In this document: positions 3,691 to 11,315 of the stretch, one piece after another | How the letters are laid out: every line of letters begins with the position of its first letter | How positions within the stretch are numbered: the stretch's first letter is position 1 | Origin: Candidatus Kapaibacterium sp. | GTDB taxonomy: Bacteria; Bacteroidota; Ignavibacteria; Kapaibacteriales; UBA2268 | Assembly: GCA_035445085.1 (NCBI GenBank) | Contig: DAOMQA010000003.1 | Location: 44,368-108,367, forward strand | Length of the DNA stretch: 64,000 nt | Direction of reading: 5' to 3' | Translations under genes and position numbers: made by a program | Notes under the pieces: generated by a model | Seen by the model: only the letters and a program-made list of their open reading frames with translations | Told to the model about the DNA's origin: nothing | Databases searched by the model: none

Positions 3691-4404
3691 ATGGATTTTT
3701 TTATTTGGACTGGCTTTACCTTAGGAATCTTTGGTAGTTTGCATTGTTTGGGTATGTGTGGACCATTGGTATTAGCTATACCAATTATAAGTAAAACAAA
3801 GTTTGGAATTGCACTCGATGGCATAATTTATAATTTGGGGCGTACACTTACTTATACATTTATGGGCTTTTTATTAGGAGTGTTGGGTGTTTCAGTAAAA
3901 TTTGCTGGCATACAAGATTATGTTTCTATTACCTTAGGTGTTTTATTATTGCTTTCCTTGGTTGTGCCACGTAAGTATTATAAATCATTGGATAGTAAAA
4001 AAAGTATCAATAAAATTGTCATTAATATTAAAAAGCAATTCAAATCATTAATAGAAACGAGAAGCAGATTTTCTTTGCTTTTTATTGGTGTCTTAAATGG
4101 ATTTTTGCCTTGTGGACTGGTGTACGCTGCCTTAGCTGGCTCATTAGCTATGAATGACCTAGCGAGTAGCTCTTTATATATGTTTGCCTTTGGGTTAGGT
4201 ACTATACCAATGCTTGCTACTGTATATTTTACTAAAAACCTATTTACTCCTAAGTTGCGTGCTAATCTAAATAAGCTTATTCCATATACGATAGCAGTAG
4301 TTGCCGTGATATTAATCCTTAGAGGATTAAACTTAGGTATACCTTATATTAGTCCCACGCCTCAAAGTCTTGAGATAACAAATAGCGGTGCTTGTTGCCA
4401 CTAA
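3691..4404 (+). CDS. DsbD_2 / TauE-SafE-like membrane protein of the cbb3 maturation cluster
   Basis: GSLHCLGMCGPLV, YNLGR, GFLPCGLVY motifs; C-terminal CCH. Confidence 0.88.
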   Translation: MDFFIWTGFTLGIFGSLHCLGMCGPLVLAIPIISKTKFGIALDGIIYNLGRTLTYTFMGFLLGVLGVSVKFAGIQDYVSITLGVLLLLSLVVPRKYYKSLDSKKSINKIVINIKKQFKSLIETRSRFSLLFIGVLNGFLPCGLVYAALAGSLAMNDLASSSLYMFAFGLGTIPMLATVYFTKNLFTPKLRANLNKLIPYTIAVVAVILILRGLNLGIPYISPTPQSLEITNSGACCH

Positions 4405-4532
4405 CGGTTTGCGGCTTTGCGCTCGGACGGGCAATCGAAGCACTAAAGTTGAATTTAGTACAACCGCTGAATATAGCACAAATGTTGAATTTTGTACTTC
4501 TCCCCAGCTCTTGCAAAACCGCTTGTTATGCC
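4397..4532 (-). repeat. attC-like site (136 bp) after the DUF262 cassette
   Basis: Minus strand GGCATAAC...GTTAGTGGC; imperfect hairpin arms gcggctttgcg/tgcaaaaccgc and gaagcac/gtacttc. Confidence 0.8.
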
Positions 4533-4546
4533 TTCGCCCTTCTTTT

Positions 4547-6615
4547 CTAGTCAGTATATTTGATTGATAATTCGTCTTCAAATCCAAAAATTGTCAAGGC
4601 TTGTTTTATTCTGTCAAACTTGCCCATATTGTCAAGATTTGCTTCTATAAAATATGTATCACTTATCGGAACTGCTTGTCTTAGTCCACTTGTTTCAGGT
4701 GTTTTAGTCAAACTTAATCTGTCGCCAATTTCTGATGTAAAAAAAGTTTCTGGTTGTAAGTCGAATAGTTGCTTAAATACTTCAATGTAAAGTTTTGCTA
4801 CTTGTGTAACTTCAAGTTTTTGATTGAAGAAAATCGCATATTCTAATTTTTTGTGTTTGGGGTCTTCTGCATCAAAAATACTTATTTCGTCATTAGTCGC
4901 TTCAAGCTCAATATTTATTTCTGGAATTCCCCAAATTTTTATAAAGCGTTCTGAAATTGTGTTTGCTCTCATTTCAATTTCAGACTTATTCCACTTCGTT
5001 TTTTCTTTTAAATCTCTATTTAGCCAAAGTCTGCTGAAAATGTATCCTTGTTCTTTACCGTCCACGTTCATTACTTTCTTGTCAAGAAATGGCTTGTTAC
5101 TTAATTTGCCGTTGTTGCCTGAAAGAGTAAGATTTCCGATTGTGTTTAGATAGTTTTCTTTTATCAAATTGTATTCGTCTGCACCTAATTCAATTTTCCA
5201 TTTTGGGTCAGGGTTTTGCGGAAAAATATGTTCAATAGTTATATTGGAATTTCCTTCAATTGCTACTGGTTCATTGTTTTGAAAGTTTTCAAGTCGTTCT
5301 AATAAGTAAGTTCGGTTTTTAGGTTTAATGTTGTAAACATCTTTTTCTTTTAGTGCGTTTATCGTTTCTGTGTTTCTTGGGAAACGTTGAACACCAGACC
5401 TTTGAAGTAAAGATTTTTGAATTGAAAACAAATAATTGTTTGGCTCAACTTTATCATATAAGCCCATAAATATTTTATTAAGTGCATTGGTAGGCAAGCC
5501 TAAAATAAAACGTCTGAATATGAATGATTGAACTGTCGATAAAACTGAAATAAAAGTTGCTTTATCAATTATGTTATTTGAAAAATCTTCATAAACTTTC
5601 ATTAAGAATGGAAACGCAACATTTATTTCTAACCTGTTGATGTATTCAAGTTGAGTTCGTATTAGCTTATCAGGTTCATTTTTTGGGTTAGTCAGTTTGT
5701 TGTAATACTTAACTAATGATTGTAATTCTGCTAGGACAAGCTCTAATTCGTTAATAGTTGAAGTCGGATATTTTTCTTTGAATTTTGTATAAACGTCTCC
5801 TTTATTTGGAATTTCTTTGTTTTTAAGTGTCAAATAATCCCGGATAAACTCAGAAACACGAGTTTTATTTAATGTCTCATCCTTAGCATTTTTCTCGATT
5901 ACTTCCCAATAGTTTTTGTAAATTTTGTCTTGATTGATTCTTGAAAGTCCCATCAAAATATAATTTCTAATAAGATCAGCTTGTGATAATTCAAGTCCTG
6001 TCGAATTCAAACTTTCAAAAATTCTTTGTGGATTGTCTCTTTGTCTATCAAGAGCAATATCAACAAAAATTAGCTTTGAAAGTCCACGCTGAACAACTTC
6101 AAAGTTCTCCGCATTAATTGCTGACCTGAAATAAACAAAATTCTCAATAATTTTTGAGTAGCCTCTAAATTCTTCTCCGTCTGTTGAATTTAGAATGTGT
6201 CGAAGTGCTTCTTTATTATTTTCTGTTGGTTTTAACTTTAACTTTTCTTCTCCGGGTGCAAATTCATTTATCAAATAAGTTTTCTGAATTCGGTTGGCCA
6301 CATTTGGTTGTCAAGTTCCTTCGCAAGGCGGTAAAGTGCAATGTAAATTAAGGTAATTGTTGTAAGCCTTTGCTGTCCATCAATGATGGTTAATTCAGTC
6401 AAACCCGAAGCCGTGTAAACGTCATCGTGAACATAAACTATACTTCCAATAAAGTGAGCATTTGTCTTGTCGTTCTTTCCCGTTTCAATTATGTCGTGAA
6501 GTAATTGTTTACATTGAAACAATGTCCAATCGTAATTTCTCTGATAAACAGGAATGGCAAATGTCGTTTCATTTGTTGCTAAAAATTTATCTACTTTGGT
6601 TTCGTTCGCTTTCAT
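4547..6615 (-). pseudogene. GmrSD-like DUF262 + DUF1524 (HNH) putative type IV restriction protein, split by a 1-bp frameshift near 6300
   Basis: ORF 6615-6271 has IPVYQRNYDW and IIDGQQRLTT. ORF 6301-4547 has FESLNSTGLELSQADLIRN, TIEHIFPQ and IGNLTLSGNNGKLSN. Adding one T (ATG TTG GCC) joins them into about 689 aa. Confidence 0.85.
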
Positions 6616-6648
6616 ATTTTATTTCTGCCTGTCAGTTTGTTTACGGTT

Positions 6649-6898
6649 GCCACTAGCTTACAAATATACGAACATTCGTATATAAATACTAATACAACAA
6701 TTAATATTATTTCTAATATACGAAAAAAATTAGTATTTTCCGATAACTAATAATTCCTTTCTAATTTAATTATAAAACAACTTTCTATTTAGGTACGCTT
6801 TCAATGGCTGAAAGTTGCGACTTGCGAGGGTGGGTGGTGGAGTACAAAAGTTTAATTTAGCACTTCAGCCCCCATTTTGCCAAACCCTTGTTAGTGGC
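6649..6898 (-). repeat. Composite att site, copy 1 (250 bp): attC-like arm + AT-rich palindromic module
   Basis: Direct repeat of 7511-7758; minus-strand ends GCCACTAAC ... GCTAGTGGC. Confidence 0.85.
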
Positions 6899-7490
6899 TG
6901 CCTTTCTTTGCATCTGTAAGTTTCAAATATTCGTTTCCTCGTCTCTCTATCAAGTTTTCTAAACTTTCAAAATAGTTCAGTCCTGCAAGTCCTGTCCCGT
7001 ATGGTGCAACTGTTATTTCACTAATCAAATATCCATTGTCTAATAGGAGAAGTCCTTTATCGGTATCGTCTGCATACCAAATAAAGTCAACTATTTTTCT
7101 GTTCTTAATATGTTTTAGTTTGTTTTCCCTGTAGTCAACTTTATATGGTTGATAATCCTTGATTACGATGTCTTGTCCAAATAAAAATTTACGAAGTCTG
7201 TTAAATATATTCTGTCTTTGTCGTTGGTAACTATCGGCAATTTCTCCGACTGTTTTGTTGTTCTTGTTGACGTAATAAATGGGATAGTCCGATAAGTCAG
7301 CGAAAAGGCTTACAGCTTCTTTGTTTAACTCCTTTAACCAAATGTCGTCATTATGACAAAGTGGAATGTCAATAATATATTTGTTGTCAAGTTCTATAAA
7401 ACACTCACAAGTGTCTAAGCCGCCAACCTCCATTTTTAACAATGAATAAATGTTTGTAACAGTTTTACCTATAATTTCTCCTGTCTGCAT
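6891..7490 (-). CDS. Hypothetical cassette protein (199 aa)
   Basis: ATG 29 bp after the GTTAGTGGC core; stop codon lies inside the GCCACTAAC box; no motif recognised. Confidence 0.8.
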   Translation of the reverse strand: MQTGEIIGKTVTNIYSLLKMEVGGLDTCECFIELDNKYIIDIPLCHNDDIWLKELNKEAVSLFADLSDYPIYYVNKNNKTVGEIADSYQRQRQNIFNRLRKFLFGQDIVIKDYQPYKVDYRENKLKHIKNRKIVDFIWYADDTDKGLLLLDNGYLISEITVAPYGTGLAGLNYFESLENLIERRGNEYLKLTDAKKGSH

Positions 7491-7510
7491 CTCGGGTGTT
7501 GGTTAAGGTT

Positions 7511-7758
7511 GCCACTAACTTATAAATATACGAACATTCGTATATAAATACTAATTCAACAATTAATATTATTTCTAATATACGAAAAAAATTAATATTT
7601 TCCGATAACTAATAATCCCTTCCTAATTTAATTATAAAACAACTTTCTATTTAGGTACGCTTTCAATGGCTGAAAGTACTACTTGCAGGTGGGTGGGGGG
7701 AGTACAAAAGTTCAATTTAGCACTTCAGCCCCCATTTTGCCAAACCCTTGTTGTGTGC
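7511..7758 (-). repeat. Composite att site, copy 2 (248 bp)
   Basis: Direct repeat of 6649-6898; minus-strand ends GCACACAAC ... GTTAGTGGC. Confidence 0.85.
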
Positions 7759-7767
7759 AGTGCTTTT

Positions 7768-8622
7768 TTAGCCATATTTTTCTGCTGGTTCAAATAATGT
7801 CAATTGTTGTTGTTCTGGTAATGCTTCAAGATAGTTTGAAATAAAAAGCTCTTTCCCTTTTTGGTCTGCACTTGCTGTTACATTTCGCATTCCATACATC
7901 AATTCCCAAGGTATAATATTTGCAAATGAAAACAACTCTCTAATGTATTCGCTGTCGTCATAAGTAATGAGCCATTTATGCTTGCAGGTCTTCATATTGT
8001 CGGCAAACTTAACGTGGTCAAATGATTTGTGCATATTGCCATTCTTTCCATATAGTGCCGATTTTGTTGCTGAATAATAAGGTGGGTCAAGAAAAATAAA
8101 AACATTTTCTCCGTCCTTTTTCAATAATTCTTCATAATCAAGGTTTGTGATAGTTGAACCATTTATAACTTTTGCAAATTGGTTAAGTCGTTGAATACTA
8201 CTTTCTGTAAAGCGTCCTATAAAAGCACCTTCACTAAAACCACCACTCAAACTTGTTCCTGAAAATGTTATTCGGTTATATATAAAAAATGCTGCACCTC
8301 TTTCTAAATCGTTGAATGAAGCCAAATTTTCATTTAGAAATTTATGTAATTCTTTCCCTACTGGAAATTGGTTACGCCATTCATAAATTTTGTCAATAAG
8401 AGCATCTACATCTTTTTGGGCCATCTCCCAAAACTTGTAGAGTTCAAAATAAAGGTCGTTAATCCAAAAAGTTTTATTTGGAAAGCGTTGTTTTGCATAA
8501 ATGAAAATTGAACCACCGCCTAAAAATGGTTCTCTAAATTCGTCAAATTCAGGAATAATTGTAGATATTAAATCTACCGACCTGCTTTTTCCACCTGGGT
8601 ATCTTAACGGACTTTTTATCAT
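7768..8622 (-). CDS. Dam/D12-class N6-adenine DNA methyltransferase
   Basis: KSPLRYPGGKS, EPFLGGGS (SAM binding), FLDPPY (catalytic). Confidence 0.93.
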   Translation of the reverse strand: MIKSPLRYPGGKSRSVDLISTIIPEFDEFREPFLGGGSIFIYAKQRFPNKTFWINDLYFELYKFWEMAQKDVDALIDKIYEWRNQFPVGKELHKFLNENLASFNDLERGAAFFIYNRITFSGTSLSGGFSEGAFIGRFTESSIQRLNQFAKVINGSTITNLDYEELLKKDGENVFIFLDPPYYSATKSALYGKNGNMHKSFDHVKFADNMKTCKHKWLITYDDSEYIRELFSFANIIPWELMYGMRNVTASADQKGKELFISNYLEALPEQQQLTLFEPAEKYG

Positions 8623-9710
8623 TTTGAATATTGTATTTGAATGATAAAATTATTTTGTTTAGCTTCAGCAAAAATGGTTTCTACTAATTTGATTTGTTGT
8701 GTTGAAAAACTATTTTCGGTAAAAAAGTTTGCAATATCTTTTTTTGTACTTGTAGAAGTTATTGCACCTTTTAATTTTGAAGAGGTTAAGTTTAGCACTG
8801 CTTCACTTTTTATTTTATTTCCATTAGCAGTAACTTCCGAAAGGTTGCAATACAAAATCAATTTCAAAAGCCCGTCTTTTATGTCGCCTTTGCTTGGCAG
8901 TAAAGCATTTTTACTGTGCTTTCCTTCTATTAAATTTACTTTGTTTGGTGTGATTTTTATTTCATCAACTGTCAAAAAATATTGCCCACCTAAATAATTG
9001 GTAATTGTAACTTTTGCTTTTGAAAGTGTAGATAAACTTTCTTTTGGTTGTTGTGTAACAAACTCTCTTGATTGTGCTTTTTGTGCTTTCTCTCTTGAAA
9101 AAGCCATAAAAAATGAAACATCTTTGCCAATTTTTTCTTTGAAGTTGTCTAACCCACTTGGATTGTGTAGTTTAACTTTTGTAGTTAATTCAATGTTGCC
9201 ATAAGAGGTTTTGACTTTATCAATAATCTTATGCAGATTTGTATTTAATTCATTCAAATTCCAATGTAAAGCCGAACTATGATATTGTTCTATTTCCTTT
9301 ATTTTGGATAATATGTATTTATTGTTAAACTCTTGATTGGTTATTTTTTCGTCCGCATTTTCTGCTTTGTCGTAATATGCAAAAATTACAAAAACATCTA
9401 ATAAAGACATTAATGAAACAGTATCCCATTGTATAAAATCTCTATCGCCTTTTGCTCCTTCGTCTTTTACAACTGGAATAACAGTAATTTTCTTTGAAAT
9501 GTGTAGAGTATTATACACTCTTTCAAAAGGATAAGAACGTGTTCTTTTTGGCGAAACCCATTTGGAAATTGCAAATGTATGTTTGTTGCTTGTTAGCAAA
9601 CAAGCCGAAGGCATTTCGTTAATATCAAAGTTTTTGATTTTAACTTCTTTCAAGTCCTCTGTGAAAAGTACTTGATATTTTATGCCTGTTATTTTGCCAA
9701 CTATGTCCAT
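8619..9710 (-). CDS. Putative type II restriction endonuclease, partner of the MTase
   Basis: ATGA overlap with the MTase; PD-(D/E)xK-like TVDEI...LIEGKH; specificity unknown. Confidence 0.65.
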   Translation of the reverse strand: MDIVGKITGIKYQVLFTEDLKEVKIKNFDINEMPSACLLTSNKHTFAISKWVSPKRTRSYPFERVYNTLHISKKITVIPVVKDEGAKGDRDFIQWDTVSLMSLLDVFVIFAYYDKAENADEKITNQEFNNKYILSKIKEIEQYHSSALHWNLNELNTNLHKIIDKVKTSYGNIELTTKVKLHNPSGLDNFKEKIGKDVSFFMAFSREKAQKAQSREFVTQQPKESLSTLSKAKVTITNYLGGQYFLTVDEIKITPNKVNLIEGKHSKNALLPSKGDIKDGLLKLILYCNLSEVTANGNKIKSEAVLNLTSSKLKGAITSTSTKKDIANFFTENSFSTQQIKLVETIFAEAKQNNFIIQIQYSK

Positions 9711-9784: not shown

Positions 9785-9882
9785 GCACACAACGAGCCGC
9801 GTATTGCCGAAGGCGGGATTTTTAGCACTGAACTTGATACGAAGTCGTTCAGCCCGCCTATTGCCAATACGATGTTGTGTGC
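9785..9882 (-). repeat. attC-like site (98 bp)
   Basis: Perfect 9-bp terminal inverted repeat gcacacaac/gttgtgtgc; inner arms gtattgccgaaggcggg / cccgcctattgccaatac with mismatched or extrahelical bases. Confidence 0.88.
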
Positions 9883-9898
9883 TGTGCTTTCTATGTTG

Positions 9899-10465
9899 TT
9901 AGTTTGTTTCAATTTGTTTCCGTTCTTCGTCTGTCAGTTCGTAAAGGTCGTAAATTATTTGGTTTATCTTATCTTCTGTAAATGAAATTCTGTTTTCTAA
10001 TTGCTCTTTTTTGTCTGCCAAAGTTACGGTTTGAAGTTCGCCAATTAGTTTTAGAAGTAAGGAAGTTTGCTTTTTAACTTCGTTGTATTGGTCTTGTTGA
10101 TTTTGACCGATTTCGGGTATTGGCAATTTCTCCAAATAACTTCCTTTAATTTTTGGAAAGGTCTGGCGTAAATCCGAGAAATTTTCAGTCCAGTAATTGG
10201 CAATAAATTTTGAGTTTAAGACTGCTAAAAGAAATTTGATGTCAATGCTTGCTTCTGTTTTTGGTACAATCATGAAAACGGTATTCAAACAAGCATAGCC
10301 GTTTTCATTGTCAATATCCCAACCGAGAGCTTTCCAAAACGGGTCGATAAAATCCCGTCTTGTTTGCGTTTCATTATAGTCTGATTTTTTGTAAAATTCT
10401 TTTTGTTCGTCAAACCGCTGAACCAACAATTTTATTTTTTTAAGTGCTTCGTCTTTTGTTTGCAT
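9899..10465 (-). pseudogene. Internally deleted type IIG (Eco57I/TaqI-like) restriction-modification gene; N-terminus fused in frame to the C-terminal specificity region
   Basis: NETQTRRDFIDPFWKALGWDIDNENGYA is followed directly by CLNTVFMI...FLLAVLNSK...FPKIKGSYLEKLPIP...INQIIYDLYELTDEE; no nuclease or MTase catalytic motifs remain. Confidence 0.8.
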
Positions 10466-10587
10466 CCACTTTTCCAATTTAGAGCCGTAAATGTTTTATT
10501 ATCGCTTATTAGTACTTCCATTAATTCGATATAGAAGGCTAAATCTTAAAATAATTATAAGAAAAGTTAATAAACAATAATTACTTA

Positions 10588-10618
10588 TTGTTTTTTTTAG
10601 CAAAATATCATATTTTTG
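10588..10618 (+). promoter_or_regulatory. Putative Bacteroidota-type sigma70 promoter for the act operon
   Basis: TTG at 10588-10590 and TATTTTTG (TAnnTTTG) at 10611-10618, 20-nt spacer. Confidence 0.45.
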
Positions 10619-10742
10619 GAACTCTGTTAATAAGTTTTAATAATAATTGGTATATTTTATTTATATTGCCTTTTATAAATGTAGTATCAATTATTATTAT
10701 TTATATAGAATATTGTAATTTTTAATTAAAAGTAGGTTAAAT

Positions 10743-11315
10743 GTGAAAAAAACAGTACTTGATTATGCTCTGAAGGTAAAACTTCCGCTGACTGTTTTTG
10801 TGATATTAGCAACTTTTGCAGTTACATACTTTGTAGCAAAACCAGAAAGAGATGGTGTAGGCTATCAGCCTAAACAACCAATCGCTTTCTCGCATAAGTT
10901 GCATGCCGGTGATATGGCTATCGATTGCCAATATTGCCATACTAGTGTTACAAAAACAAGGCACGCAAGTATCCCTTCTGCTAATACTTGTATGAACTGC
11001 CATAGCGTAGTCCGTACAGACAAGCCCGAAATCATCAAACTTACAGAATATTACAAAAACAATCAACCAATTCCATGGGTAAGGATTCATAGAGTACCCG
11101 AATATGCTTACTTTAATCATAGTGTGCATGTTAATAATGGCATTGATTGTGAAAATTGTCACGGTAATGTTCGTAAGATGGAAGTCGTGCAACAATCTCA
11201 CTCATTTACTATGGGTGCTTGTCTCGACTGTCACCGCAACCCTCACGAGAGAATGCCTCAAATGAAAGGAGTAATTAACAAAGGTCCAACTCATTGTAAT
11301 GCATGTCACCGTTAG
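10743..11315 (+). CDS. actA: Alternative complex III pentaheme cytochrome c subunit ActA
   Basis: GTG start, N-terminal TM helix, QPIAFSHKLHAG, five CxxCH (CQYCH, CMNCH, CENCH, CLDCH, CNACH). Confidence 0.93.
   Translation: MKKTVLDYALKVKLPLTVFVILATFAVTYFVAKPERDGVGYQPKQPIAFSHKLHAGDMAIDCQYCHTSVTKTRHASIPSANTCMNCHSVVRTDKPEIIKLTEYYKNNQPIPWVRIHRVPEYAYFNHSVHVNNGIDCENCHGNVRKMEVVQQSHSFTMGACLDCHRNPHERMPQMKGVINKGPTHCNACHR

What the first reader, a model, noticed from the sequence alone, without database searches (positions are those of the whole stretch)
4391..4405. Array ends exactly at a host stop codon that mimics the cassette core (TGT TGC CAC TAA C = minus-strand GTTAGTGGCAAC)
Seen: the 12-mer GTTGCCACTA(A/G)C occurs at 4394-4405, 6646-6657 and 7508-7519. 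The first copy also encodes the host Cys-Cys-His-stop. Inference: integrase-mediated insertion at a chromosomal secondary site that resembles the cassette core and leaves the host protein intact. Stop-codon TAAC sites would be harmless landing pads.
Basis: partly seen in the sequence, partly recalled or inferred. Interest (0 to 1): 0.62.

Follow-up and report, generated by a model that had tools for sequence, protein, structure and literature searches.

The report
Gene-cassette array docked at a stop codon
A 6-kb string of mobile phage-defence gene cassettes is joined to the chromosome exactly behind the stop codon of a housekeeping gene, whose last codons (Cys-Cys-His-stop) happen to spell the cassette system's own crossover sequence; this is a tidy example of a known route of gene capture, not a new mechanism.

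Summary
GTTGCCACTA(A/G)C occurs three times in the window and nowhere else in the 2.7-Mb genome, and the first copy encodes Cys-Cys-His-TAA of the DsbD_2 gene.

The CCH-stop is native. The same-genus relative ends TGTTGTCACTAA and runs straight into actA, with no array. So window 4405 to about 10480 is an insertion.

Read on the minus strand, the 12-mer is G|TTAGTGGCAAC, the crossover core of an integron-type cassette family found across this Bacteroidota order (consensus G|TTRGYGGCAAY). An unrelated cassette in another family starts with the identical 12-mer. The last attC (4405-4536) meets host DNA at the family's canonical ...AAACCG|TT position, so the cut falls right behind TAA.

A weight matrix from 43 foreign cores ranks the host site 328th of 5.45 million genome positions.

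The genome has no matching recombinase, so this is an integrase-less array. The best reading is recombination between an attC and a chromosomal pseudo-core (a secondary or attG-type site).

Not supported: a general preference for stop codons. No other attC examined clearly abuts one. Conspecific strains all break at the same base but carry a different terminal module.

It is a new member of a known kind, of moderate interest.

The parts
3691..4404 (+). Host DsbD_2-family gene (237 aa), last gene of the cbb3 oxidase accessory cluster (ccoG-fixH-dsbD_2). It ends Cys-Cys-His-TAA.
   Evidence: ORF. Pfam PF13386 at 2.6e-44 and FixH upstream. Native CCH-stop in orthologues.
4394..4405 (-). Host copy of the 12-mer, read on the minus strand as G|TTAGTGGCAAC. 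Base 4405 (the G) is the last base of the attC. Bases 4404-4394 are host DNA, equal to the reverse complement of (T)GT TGC CAC TAA.
   Evidence: Homology with conspecific haplotypes breaks exactly after 4404. Canonical ...AAACCG|TT end of the attC family.
4405..4536 (-). Terminal attC (s1'). It has R'' GGCATAAC (4536-4529), a 5' arm AAGCGGTTTTGC..., two ~23-nt internal modules, and a 3' arm GCGCAAAGCCGCAAACCG ending at 4405.
   Evidence: nhmmer with family arm profiles against the whole genome: 5' arm E 7e-4, 3' arm E 1.5e-4. Alignment to attCs of other genomes. Its fold is not better than shuffles (z +0.9/-0.07), so it may be decaying.
4547..6615 (-). Cassette A': a GmrSD-type (DUF262/DUF1524) restriction gene split by a frameshift into ORFs 6271..6615 and 4547..6301.
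   Evidence: Pfam GmrSD_N/GmrSD_C. The same split appears in an independent metagenome contig, L062.
6646..6657 (-). Second 12-mer copy, G|CTAGTGGCAAC, with a mutated core (GCT). It is the junction of an attI-like module with the leader of cassette A'.
6657..6902 (-). Composite junction s2'. It consists of R'' GGCAGCCACTAAC (overlapping the ORF199 stop), an attC 5' arm, and an AT-rich attI-like module carrying the palindrome ATATACGAATGTTCGTATAT and a TATATTTG box.
   Evidence: Repeat families D1/D3. arm5 HMM E 1.7e-11. The same module lies next to a tyrosine recombinase in relatives.
6891..7490 (-). Cassette B': ORF199, with no family match. It is bounded by the inverted pair TTAGTGGCAACC (start, 7518-7507) and GGCAGCCACTAAC (end, 6902-6890).
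   Evidence: and (no Pfam or NCBIfam hit).
7508..7519 (-). Third 12-mer copy, G|TTAGTGGCAAC: the junction of an attI-like module with the start of cassette B'.
7519..7763 (-). Composite junction s3', 91-96% identical to s2'. Its R'' is GCACTGCACACAAC.
   Evidence: arm5 HMM E 3.8e-11.
7768..9710 (-). Cassette C': ORF363 (8619..9710) plus a D12-class adenine methyltransferase (7768..8622). It is bounded by TTGTGTGCAAG and GCACACAAC.
   Evidence: Pfam PF02086. Sequence.
9789..9884 (-). attC s4', a clean 96-nt hairpin: GCACACAAC...G|TTGTGTGC.
   Evidence: Fold z -3.1 and -4.5 on the two strands. arm HMMs E 9e-7 and 6e-4.
9899..10477 (-). Cassette D': a 192-aa remnant of a type IIG/TaqI_C-type enzyme. 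It is shared by all conspecific haplotypes and lies next to the actA upstream spacer. The left array boundary is not resolved.
   Evidence: Pfam TaqI_C/HSDR_N. L068-L073.
10743..11315 (+). Host actA (cytochrome c7-type subunit of alternative complex III), the gene that directly follows DsbD_2 in the same-genus relative.
   Evidence: Pfam. Synteny with G001.

Best explanation
The 12-mer, read on the minus strand, is the crossover core (R'/R-box, G|TTAGTGGCAAC) of an integron-type gene-cassette system that is widespread in this Bacteroidota order.

The housekeeping DsbD_2 gene natively ends Cys-Cys-His-TAA. The reverse complement of TGT TGC CAC TAA is TTAGTGGCAACA, a perfect copy of that core.

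A tyrosine recombinase of the XerA/IntI-like type seen next to such arrays in relatives is absent from this genome, so it must have acted in trans or been lost since. It recombined a folded attC with this double-stranded chromosomal pseudo-core. The event was either an insertion, or a deletion between the last attC and the pseudo-core.

Cleavage falls between the attC's G (4405) and the host TT (4404-4403), directly behind the stop codon. The gene therefore stays intact, and the cassette array (GmrSD, ORF199, an R-M pair and a type IIG remnant) sits tail-to-tail against it.

Shown: the native C-terminus, the insertion relative to a sister species, the canonical attC and crossover position, the core consensus, the absence of an integrase, and the strain polymorphism. 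Inferred: that a recombinase did it, the order of events, and the position of the left junction.
For: - The 12-mer is unique to this locus in the genome.
- CCH-stop is native. Four other species have it, and the two nearest read tgttgtcacTAA.
- Same-genus G001 has DsbD_2, 240 bp and then actA with no array.
- Conspecific haplotypes (identical protein, 0.4-1.8% nucleotide divergence) lose homology exactly after TAA at 4404.
- s1' matches the family's attC arms, and its conserved 3' end ...GCAAACCG stops at 4405. This mirrors ...GCCAAGCYGCRAACCG|TT in more than 25 attCs of other genomes.
- In the complete locus of G035, the recombinase is followed by ORF-attC units in the same orientation. The cassette starts are TTAGCGGCAATGG, TTGGTGGCAACCC and TTAGTGGCAACCGT. 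The last is the identical 12-mer, on an HNH cassette unrelated to ORF199.
- A PWM of 43 foreign cores ranks the host site 328th of 5,452,994 positions.
- Integron cassettes are known to insert at genomic attG sites and so create CALINs and SALINs. Hotspots there need about 9+9 bp (10.1101/2022.09.11.507474).
Against: - There is no recombinase of this type in the genome or its genus, so catalysis is inferred.
- The left junction (about 10478) has no recognisable core, and cassette D' does not start with the complement of its own R''. A clean conservative insertion cannot be demonstrated.
- No conspecific empty site was found in the metagenome contigs that cover the junction (six runs).
- The common haplotype has a 190-nt unique segment between the stop codon and its last attC, so the events at this locus were more than one.
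- s1' does not fold better than shuffled sequence.
- Thirteen other sites in the genome match TTRGYGGCAAY and are unoccupied.
Confidence: 0.7

Rival explanations
1. Microhomology-mediated deletion or illegitimate recombination, with no recombinase involved. The array originally lay further downstream, for example where the common haplotype has its last attC, 190 nt from the stop. s1' was followed by a cassette beginning TTAGTGGCAAC. Slippage or RecA-independent deletion between that 11-mer and the identical host 11-mer then removed everything in between, which also leaves the junction at G|TT.
For: Cassettes starting TTAGTGGCAAC exist in this very array and elsewhere. The common haplotype has 190 nt between the stop codon and its last attC. 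The only strain difference near the junction, CAC versus CAT at 4401, would be explained if TTAG came from the cassette side. No integrase is present.
Against: The two nearest outgroups have CAC, so the window's CAC is probably ancestral and needs no explanation. With 1-1.8% divergence in the gene, a SNP within 4 nt of the junction has about 4-7% chance. No intermediate was seen in 8 metagenomes. This rival still depends on the host mimic.
Confidence: 0.15
2. The array is the remnant of a resident integron built in place. The 12-mer at 4394-4405 is the right half of its original attI, supplied by the element, and it replaced the true end of the host gene.
For: In any integron, the far end of the array is flanked by the right half of the original attI. 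G194's apparently unoccupied attI reads G|TTAGCGGCAAC, an 11/12 match.
Against: CCH-TAA with 10/12 of the 12-mer is present in species that have no array. No attI palindrome, integrase or integrase pseudogene lies at the other end, 10478-10742.
Confidence: 0.04
3. Coincidence. The array ends there for unrelated reasons, and the 12-mer identity is chance.
For: Given a CCH-TAA end, only three synonymous choices are needed to spell the core (a 1 in 8 chance). Fifteen genome sites match the degenerate consensus.
Against: The probability that a random junction falls on a site ranked 328th or better of 5.45 million is 6e-5. The junction is also in exact register with the attC's G|TT.
Confidence: 0.01

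Closest known systems
attC x attG insertion of integron cassettes into genomes (Loot et al., bioRxiv 10.1101/2022.09.11.507474; read)
   Same: An attC is joined at its G|TT to a chromosomal double-stranded site that is neither attI nor attC. The result is an integrase-less small cassette cluster (CALIN/SALIN). Efficient sites need sequence beyond the triplet, about 9 bp on each side.
   Different: Here the recombinase family is XerA-like and lacks the IntI insertion. The target matches the system's own 11-nt core rather than only GWT plus a CRGM motif. It overlaps a stop codon. Nothing was tested experimentally.
Classical secondary-site insertion of cassettes by IntI1 (GWTMW/GTT sites; from my own knowledge of work by Francia, Recchia, Stokes and Hall in the 1990s, not read here)
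   Same: A cassette is fixed outside an integron at a core-like site. It is hard to excise afterwards because only one proper site remains.
   Different: Those cases are plasmid-borne single cassettes. Here a four-cassette array lies in a chromosome, and the terminal hybrid site keeps a perfect core.
CALINs and sedentary chromosomal integrons carrying anti-phage cassettes (IntegronFinder papers PMC4889954 and PMC9024848; bioRxiv 10.1101/2024.07.02.601686, listed, abstract only)
   Same: A cluster of attC sites without an integrase. The cargo is restriction and defence genes, and content varies between strains.
   Different: Two of the internal junctions are attC/attI-like composites. The phylum-level group is Bacteroidota, Kapabacteria-like. 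IntegronFinder reported complete integrons in Chlorobi and Ignavibacteriae, but its IntI criterion would not accept the recombinase found here.
Delta-attI-type cassettes of mobile integrons (PMC12901181, abstract seen)
   Same: attI-derived sequence occurs inside arrays as part of cassette junctions.
   Different: This was not examined in depth here. It concerns the internal junctions s2' and s3' rather than the host junction.

Membership tests
Integron-type cassette array (attC sites plus cassettes) | attC sites: imperfect palindromes with an inverse core ...AAC at the 5' end and a core G|TT... at the 3' end, placed directly after each ORF. | tested here: met
   s4' is a 96-nt hairpin with z -3.1/-4.5. 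s1', s2', s3' and s4' match the family arm profiles. The architecture is shared with attCs in more than 20 other genomes.
Integron-type cassette array (attC sites plus cassettes) | The cassette start (after G|) is complementary to the cassette's own inverse core, as expected for units that circularise. | tested here: met
   B': TTAGTGGCAACC against GGCAGCCACTAAC. C': TTGTGTGCA against TGCACACAAC. Not met for A' (CTAGTGGC against GGCATAAC) or D'.
Integron (sensu stricto: IntI + attI + Pc) | An integron integrase with the IntI-specific additional domain, encoded next to the array. | tested here: not met
   No hit reaches the TIGR02249 cut-off in the genome. The best tblastn match to the relatives' recombinase is 30% identical, which is housekeeping Xer. 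The relatives' array-linked recombinases score 192-209 bits against a cut-off of 265. They lack a counterpart of VchIntIA residues 182-237. They pass NF040815 XerA instead (225-228 bits, cut-off 220).
CALIN (cluster of attC sites lacking an integron integrase) | At least 2 attC sites and no integrase nearby. | tested here: met
   Four attC-type sites lie between 4405 and 9884, and there is no recombinase in the window or the genome. IntegronFinder itself was not run.
attG / secondary-site insertion | The array/host boundary lies at the attC's G|TT, with host sequence starting TT(W). | tested here: met
   The conserved ...AAACCG ends at 4405 and the host TTAGTGGCAAC follows. The strain homology break falls at 4404/4405.
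attG / secondary-site insertion | The target sequence pre-exists in genomes without the insert (an empty site). | tested here: met
   Same-genus G001 reads tgttgtcacTAA, then 240 bp, then actA. Within the species no empty site was found.
attG / secondary-site insertion | A reciprocal left junction (host ...N|TT-cassette start) consistent with conservative recombination. | tested here: inconclusive
   Candidate...GGCTCTAAA|TTGGAAAAGTGGATG at 10478/10477. It cannot be checked because the intergenic DNA of G001 and G002 shows no homology (z about 0).
attG / secondary-site insertion | Dependence on the recombinase. | not testable with these tools
   Needs a recombination assay.

The most novel reading that the evidence does not exclude
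The Cys-Cys-His-stop end of a conserved cbb3-oxidase accessory gene serves as a standing chromosomal docking site, a pseudo-attI R-box, for a Bacteroidota cassette system. That system's recombinase is XerA-like and lacks the IntI-specific domain.

Because the hybrid site attC-G|TTAGTGGCAAC keeps a perfect core, cassettes can be exchanged there repeatedly by a recombinase supplied in trans. This would explain why conspecific strains share the breakpoint at 4404/4405 but differ in the module next to it. It would also explain why complete attI-like modules sit inside an array that has no integrase.
Probability: 0.22. Interest if true: 0.55.

Novelty: new member of a known kind. Interest (0 to 1): 0.4.

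Why it matters
How integrase-less cassette clusters (CALINs) arise is still debated: they may be decayed integrons, or the result of direct insertion at genomic sites.

This locus is a clean natural example of the second route, and it lies outside the Proteobacteria:
- The target pre-exists in a sister species.
- The junction is in register with the attC crossover.
- The target matches the system's extended core.

It also shows that a short conserved peptide motif can, read on the other strand, act as a recombination site without cost to the gene.

It adds defined sequences to a poorly described Bacteroidota cassette system whose recombinase is not a canonical IntI: a core consensus G|TTRGYGGCAAY and the attC arm motifs. 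These could be used to build a family-specific detector.

Tried and rejected
- Plus-strand orientation of the attCs, in which DsbD_2 plus s1 would look like a cassette. Rejected because in the complete locus of G035 the ORFs, R''...R' and the recombinase all run in one direction, and the attI-like modules point the same way as the minus-strand ORFs.
- Locating the left junction by aligning the actA-upstream spacer with G001 and G002. There is no homology beyond shuffles.
- Reading the 190-nt segment behind the stop codon in the common haplotype as a decayed attC. By eye...AGCTACCAAACCTA|TTAATGG resembles ...AGCTGCAAACCG|TTA, but the 3'-arm profile does not detect it, it has no notable fold, and it is unique in the genome. 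Left open.
- Searching for a conspecific empty site as a joint from 4404 to about 10478 in 8 metagenome runs. None was found. The joints 4421 to about 9812 have sides of only 20-27 nt and are other attCs of the community.
- The stop-codon landing-pad generalisation. No clear second case. One attC (L119) abuts only a dubious 71-aa ORF.
- The palindrome pattern scan also hit ArsR-type operator contexts and unrelated genomes. These are not att sites and were set aside.
- Exact look-up of the variant haplotype's 533-aa protein returned nothing.

Full report
**Observation**

The window shows GTTGCCACTAAC at 4394-4405, GTTGCCACTAGC at 6646-6657 and GTTGCCACTAAC at 7508-7519. Shuffles give 0.01 expected matches. 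These are the only three copies in the 2.73-Mb genome, which is 31.7% G+C.

The ORF 3691..4404 is a full-length DsbD_2-family protein that follows ccoG and fixH. Its last codons are TGT TGC CAC TAA at 4393-4404, followed by C at 4405.

Copies 2 and 3 lie inside two ~250-bp repeats that are 91-96% identical. They count as one observation, not two.

**Is the CCH-stop native?**

I located orthologues in 19 relatives and read their ends:
- Same-genus G001 (65% identity) ends ...GGSCCH*, with tgt tgt cac TAA.
- G010 ends ...NDCCH*, also with tgttgtcacTAA.
- G007 and G032 end ...ECCH*.
- More distant orthologues keep a C-terminal Cys motif (CCK, CCR, CCE, ECH, SCH), sometimes with a few more residues.

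In G001 the stop is followed by 240 bp of AT-rich spacer and then actA. In the window, actA starts at 10743.

So window 4405 to about 10480 (6.1 kb) is an insertion, and the C-terminus was not supplied by it.

**What the inserted DNA is**

All genes in it are on the minus strand:
- a frameshifted GmrSD gene (4547-6615)
- ORF199 (6891-7490)
- ORF363 plus a D12 adenine methyltransferase (7768-9710)
- a 192-aa TaqI_C/HSDR_N remnant (9899-10477)

Each gene block is followed on the minus strand by a structured element beginning ...YTAAC-A(A/G)GGGTTTGGCAAAA-GGGGGC.

BLAST of one such element against 254 genomes of the same order found the same element in many of them. The full copies share one architecture:
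- an inverse core ...TAAC
- a 5' arm
- one to three ~23-nt modules
- a 3' arm ...CTTCGCCAAGCC(G/C)C(A/G)AACCG
- then TT followed by variable sequence

A pattern for the 3' arm hits 40 places in 28 genomes, against 5 for the reversed control.

In the complete genome G035 a tyrosine recombinase is followed by five such ORF-attC units, all in one direction. That settles the orientation: in the window the minus strand is the top strand, and the crossover is G|TT as in integrons.

Site s4' (9789-9884) is a clean hairpin, with z -3.1 and -4.5. Profiles of the two arms find s1' (4536-4395), s2', s3' and s4' in the window. They find only two further isolated sites in the whole genome.

**The junction**

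The conserved 3' arm of s1' reads GCGCAAAGCCGCAAACCG and ends at 4405. The next bases on the minus strand are TTAGTGGCAAC, which is the reverse complement of the host's (T)GT TGC CAC TAA.

The array/host boundary is therefore in exact register with the canonical crossover, and the stop codon is host DNA.

Independent support comes from conspecific strains. Metagenome contigs encode the identical DsbD_2 protein with 0.4-1.8% nucleotide divergence. They lose all similarity to the window directly after TAA. Contigs of six further runs break at 4404.

**What the 12-mer is**

After G|, cassette starts in other genomes read:
- TTAGCGGCAATGG
- TTGGGCGCAATT
- TTACCGGCAATT
- TTGGTGGCAACCC
- TTAGCGGTAATT
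- TTAGTGGCAACCGT, in G035: the identical 12-mer

The G035 cassette with the identical 12-mer encodes an HNH protein unrelated to ORF199, yet it has the same inverse core GGCAGCCACTAAC.

GCCACTAAC is the inverse core of 3 of 13 aligned attCs. The consensus is G|TTRGYGGCAAY, so the 12-mer is the extended core of this family and not a feature of one cassette.

In the window, copies 2 and 3 sit where an AT-rich module meets the next cassette. That module carries the palindrome ATATACGAATGTTCGTATAT and a TATATTTG box.

The same module lies about 110 nt from a divergent 279-aa tyrosine recombinase in three relatives. There too the sequence diverges right after GTT. In sister genomes the module remains beside mreB without the recombinase. 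This agrees with earlier notes calling it attI-like. I verified the association only in those few loci.

**How good is the host mimic?**

A weight matrix from 43 distinct cores of other species scores the host 11-mer 11.85 bits. Only 328 of 5,452,994 positions in the genome score as high, a fraction of 6e-5.

The CAT variant ranks about 7,000th and G001's version about 2,700th. Fifteen sites match TTRGYGGCAAY, and two of them are in this locus.

Given a CCH-TAA end, only three synonymous choices are needed to spell the core. The peptide motif therefore predisposes the site.

**Recombinase**

The genome (100% complete by the tool's estimate, 71 contigs) has no hit over the IntI cut-off. It has only 29-30% identical Xer-type relatives of the array-linked recombinase.

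Homologues occur in 35 of 254 genomes of the order, and none in this genus.

These recombinases pass NCBIfam XerA (225-228 bits, cut-off 220) but not TIGR02249 (192-209 bits, cut-off 265). Aligned to VchIntIA (2a3v), they lack a counterpart of residues 182-237, the IntI-specific insertion.

The array in the window is thus a CALIN. The system works like an integron, but its enzyme fails a defining feature of IntI.

**Mechanism**

The best reading (0.7) is recombination between an attC and a chromosomal double-stranded pseudo-core. This is the secondary-site or attG route shown experimentally for IntI1-3. There the minimal consensus is GWT, hotspots need about 9+9 bp, and SALINs and CALINs are proposed products.

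Because the cut is G|TT on the minus strand, it is TAA|C on the plus strand, and the ORF is untouched.

**Complications**

- Every conspecific haplotype already has an array. The remnant cassette D' and part of s4' next to actA are shared.
- The common haplotype differs at the other end. Its order is: stop codon (CAT TAA), a unique 190-nt segment, another attC (R' G|TTACAGCC), and a 533-aa N6_Mtase/AlbA_2 cassette.
- The window haplotype may therefore have arisen by a second event. That could be a new insertion, or a deletion between a terminal attC and the pseudo-core.
- A recombinase-free deletion between the host 11-mer and an identical cassette start would give the same junction. It would also explain the CAC/CAT difference at 4401. 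I give it 0.15. Against it, both near outgroups have CAC, and a nearby SNP is only mildly unlikely, at 4-7%.
- The left junction is unresolved.
- s1' no longer folds better than shuffles.

**Generalisation**

The landing-pad idea was tested as far as possible:
- The two other attCs in this genome end 84 nt before a convergent gene and next to a CRISPR array.
- Of about 25 true attCs in relatives, most are followed by the next cassette.
- The four that face a large convergent gene stop 74-226 nt short of it. One abuts only a dubious 71-aa ORF.
- None of the 19 orthologous DsbD_2 loci has an attC arm.

There is no sign of a preference for stop codons. This case looks like a core match that happens to be a gene end.

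**Novelty**

Integrons have been reported in Chlorobi and Ignavibacteriae, and genomic attG insertion is established.

This is a new, well-resolved member of that kind in a little-studied system. The curiosity is that a conserved tripeptide plus stop encodes the core.

Noticed in passing
L165 (G035:C1:996000-1014000) and L166 (G033:C56:36000-49000): These are complete cassette arrays of the same attC family behind a XerA-like recombinase. Their cargo includes a pterin-binding DHPS-type enzyme (the same 272-aa ORF start appears in both genomes), an SMR transporter, an MFS transporter, a LinB-like nucleotidyltransferase, an HNH endonuclease and a GmrSD. So environmental Bacteroidota arrays of this type carry resistance-type as well as defence-type cassettes.
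   Followed up: partly
L082, L090, L092, L093, L094, L097, L100: A near-identical attI-like module (...AAATAAACGAATGTTCGTATATTTGGGC|GTT...) occurs in animal-associated bacteria of different phyla: Bergeyella porcorum (several copies), Actinobacillus indolicus, Moraxella pluranimalium and a Bacteroides MAG. Each copy is followed after GTT by a different gene. This looks like a mobile promoter/att module crossing phyla. No recombinase was seen within the fetched flanks.
   Followed up: no
window 9834-9877: The 3' half of attC s4 is matched by many other contigs of the same metagenomes. Summed depths reach about 280, against about 14 for this genome. This attC family, and hence its cassette pool, is abundant in wastewater and biofilm communities.
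   Followed up: partly
own genome, contig C10:66646-67770 (outside the window): A single cassette (350-aa ORF plus a family attC ending ...CCAAAACG|TTGTAAGG) lies directly beside a CRISPR array and cas1/cas2. A second isolated attC is at C7:64460-64600.
   Followed up: partly
L084 versus L103/L058/L056: In one genus the attI-like module sits next to mreB-mreC. One genome has the recombinase between mreB and the module, while three have the module but no recombinase. This is consistent with a sedentary platform that repeatedly loses its enzyme.
   Followed up: partly
window 6271-6301: The GmrSD gene is split by a frameshift into two overlapping ORFs. The same split is present in an independent metagenome contig (L062), so it is a real pseudogene and not an assembly error.
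   Followed up: partly
L066:886-2873 (conspecific haplotype): The common haplotype carries a 533-aa N6_Mtase + SLFN/AlbA_2 protein as a cassette. It also has a unique, non-coding 190-nt segment of unknown origin between its last attC and the DsbD_2 stop.
   Followed up: partly
window 6646-6657: The second 12-mer copy has GCT instead of GTT at the crossover triplet, so this internal attI-like site may be inactive.
   Followed up: no
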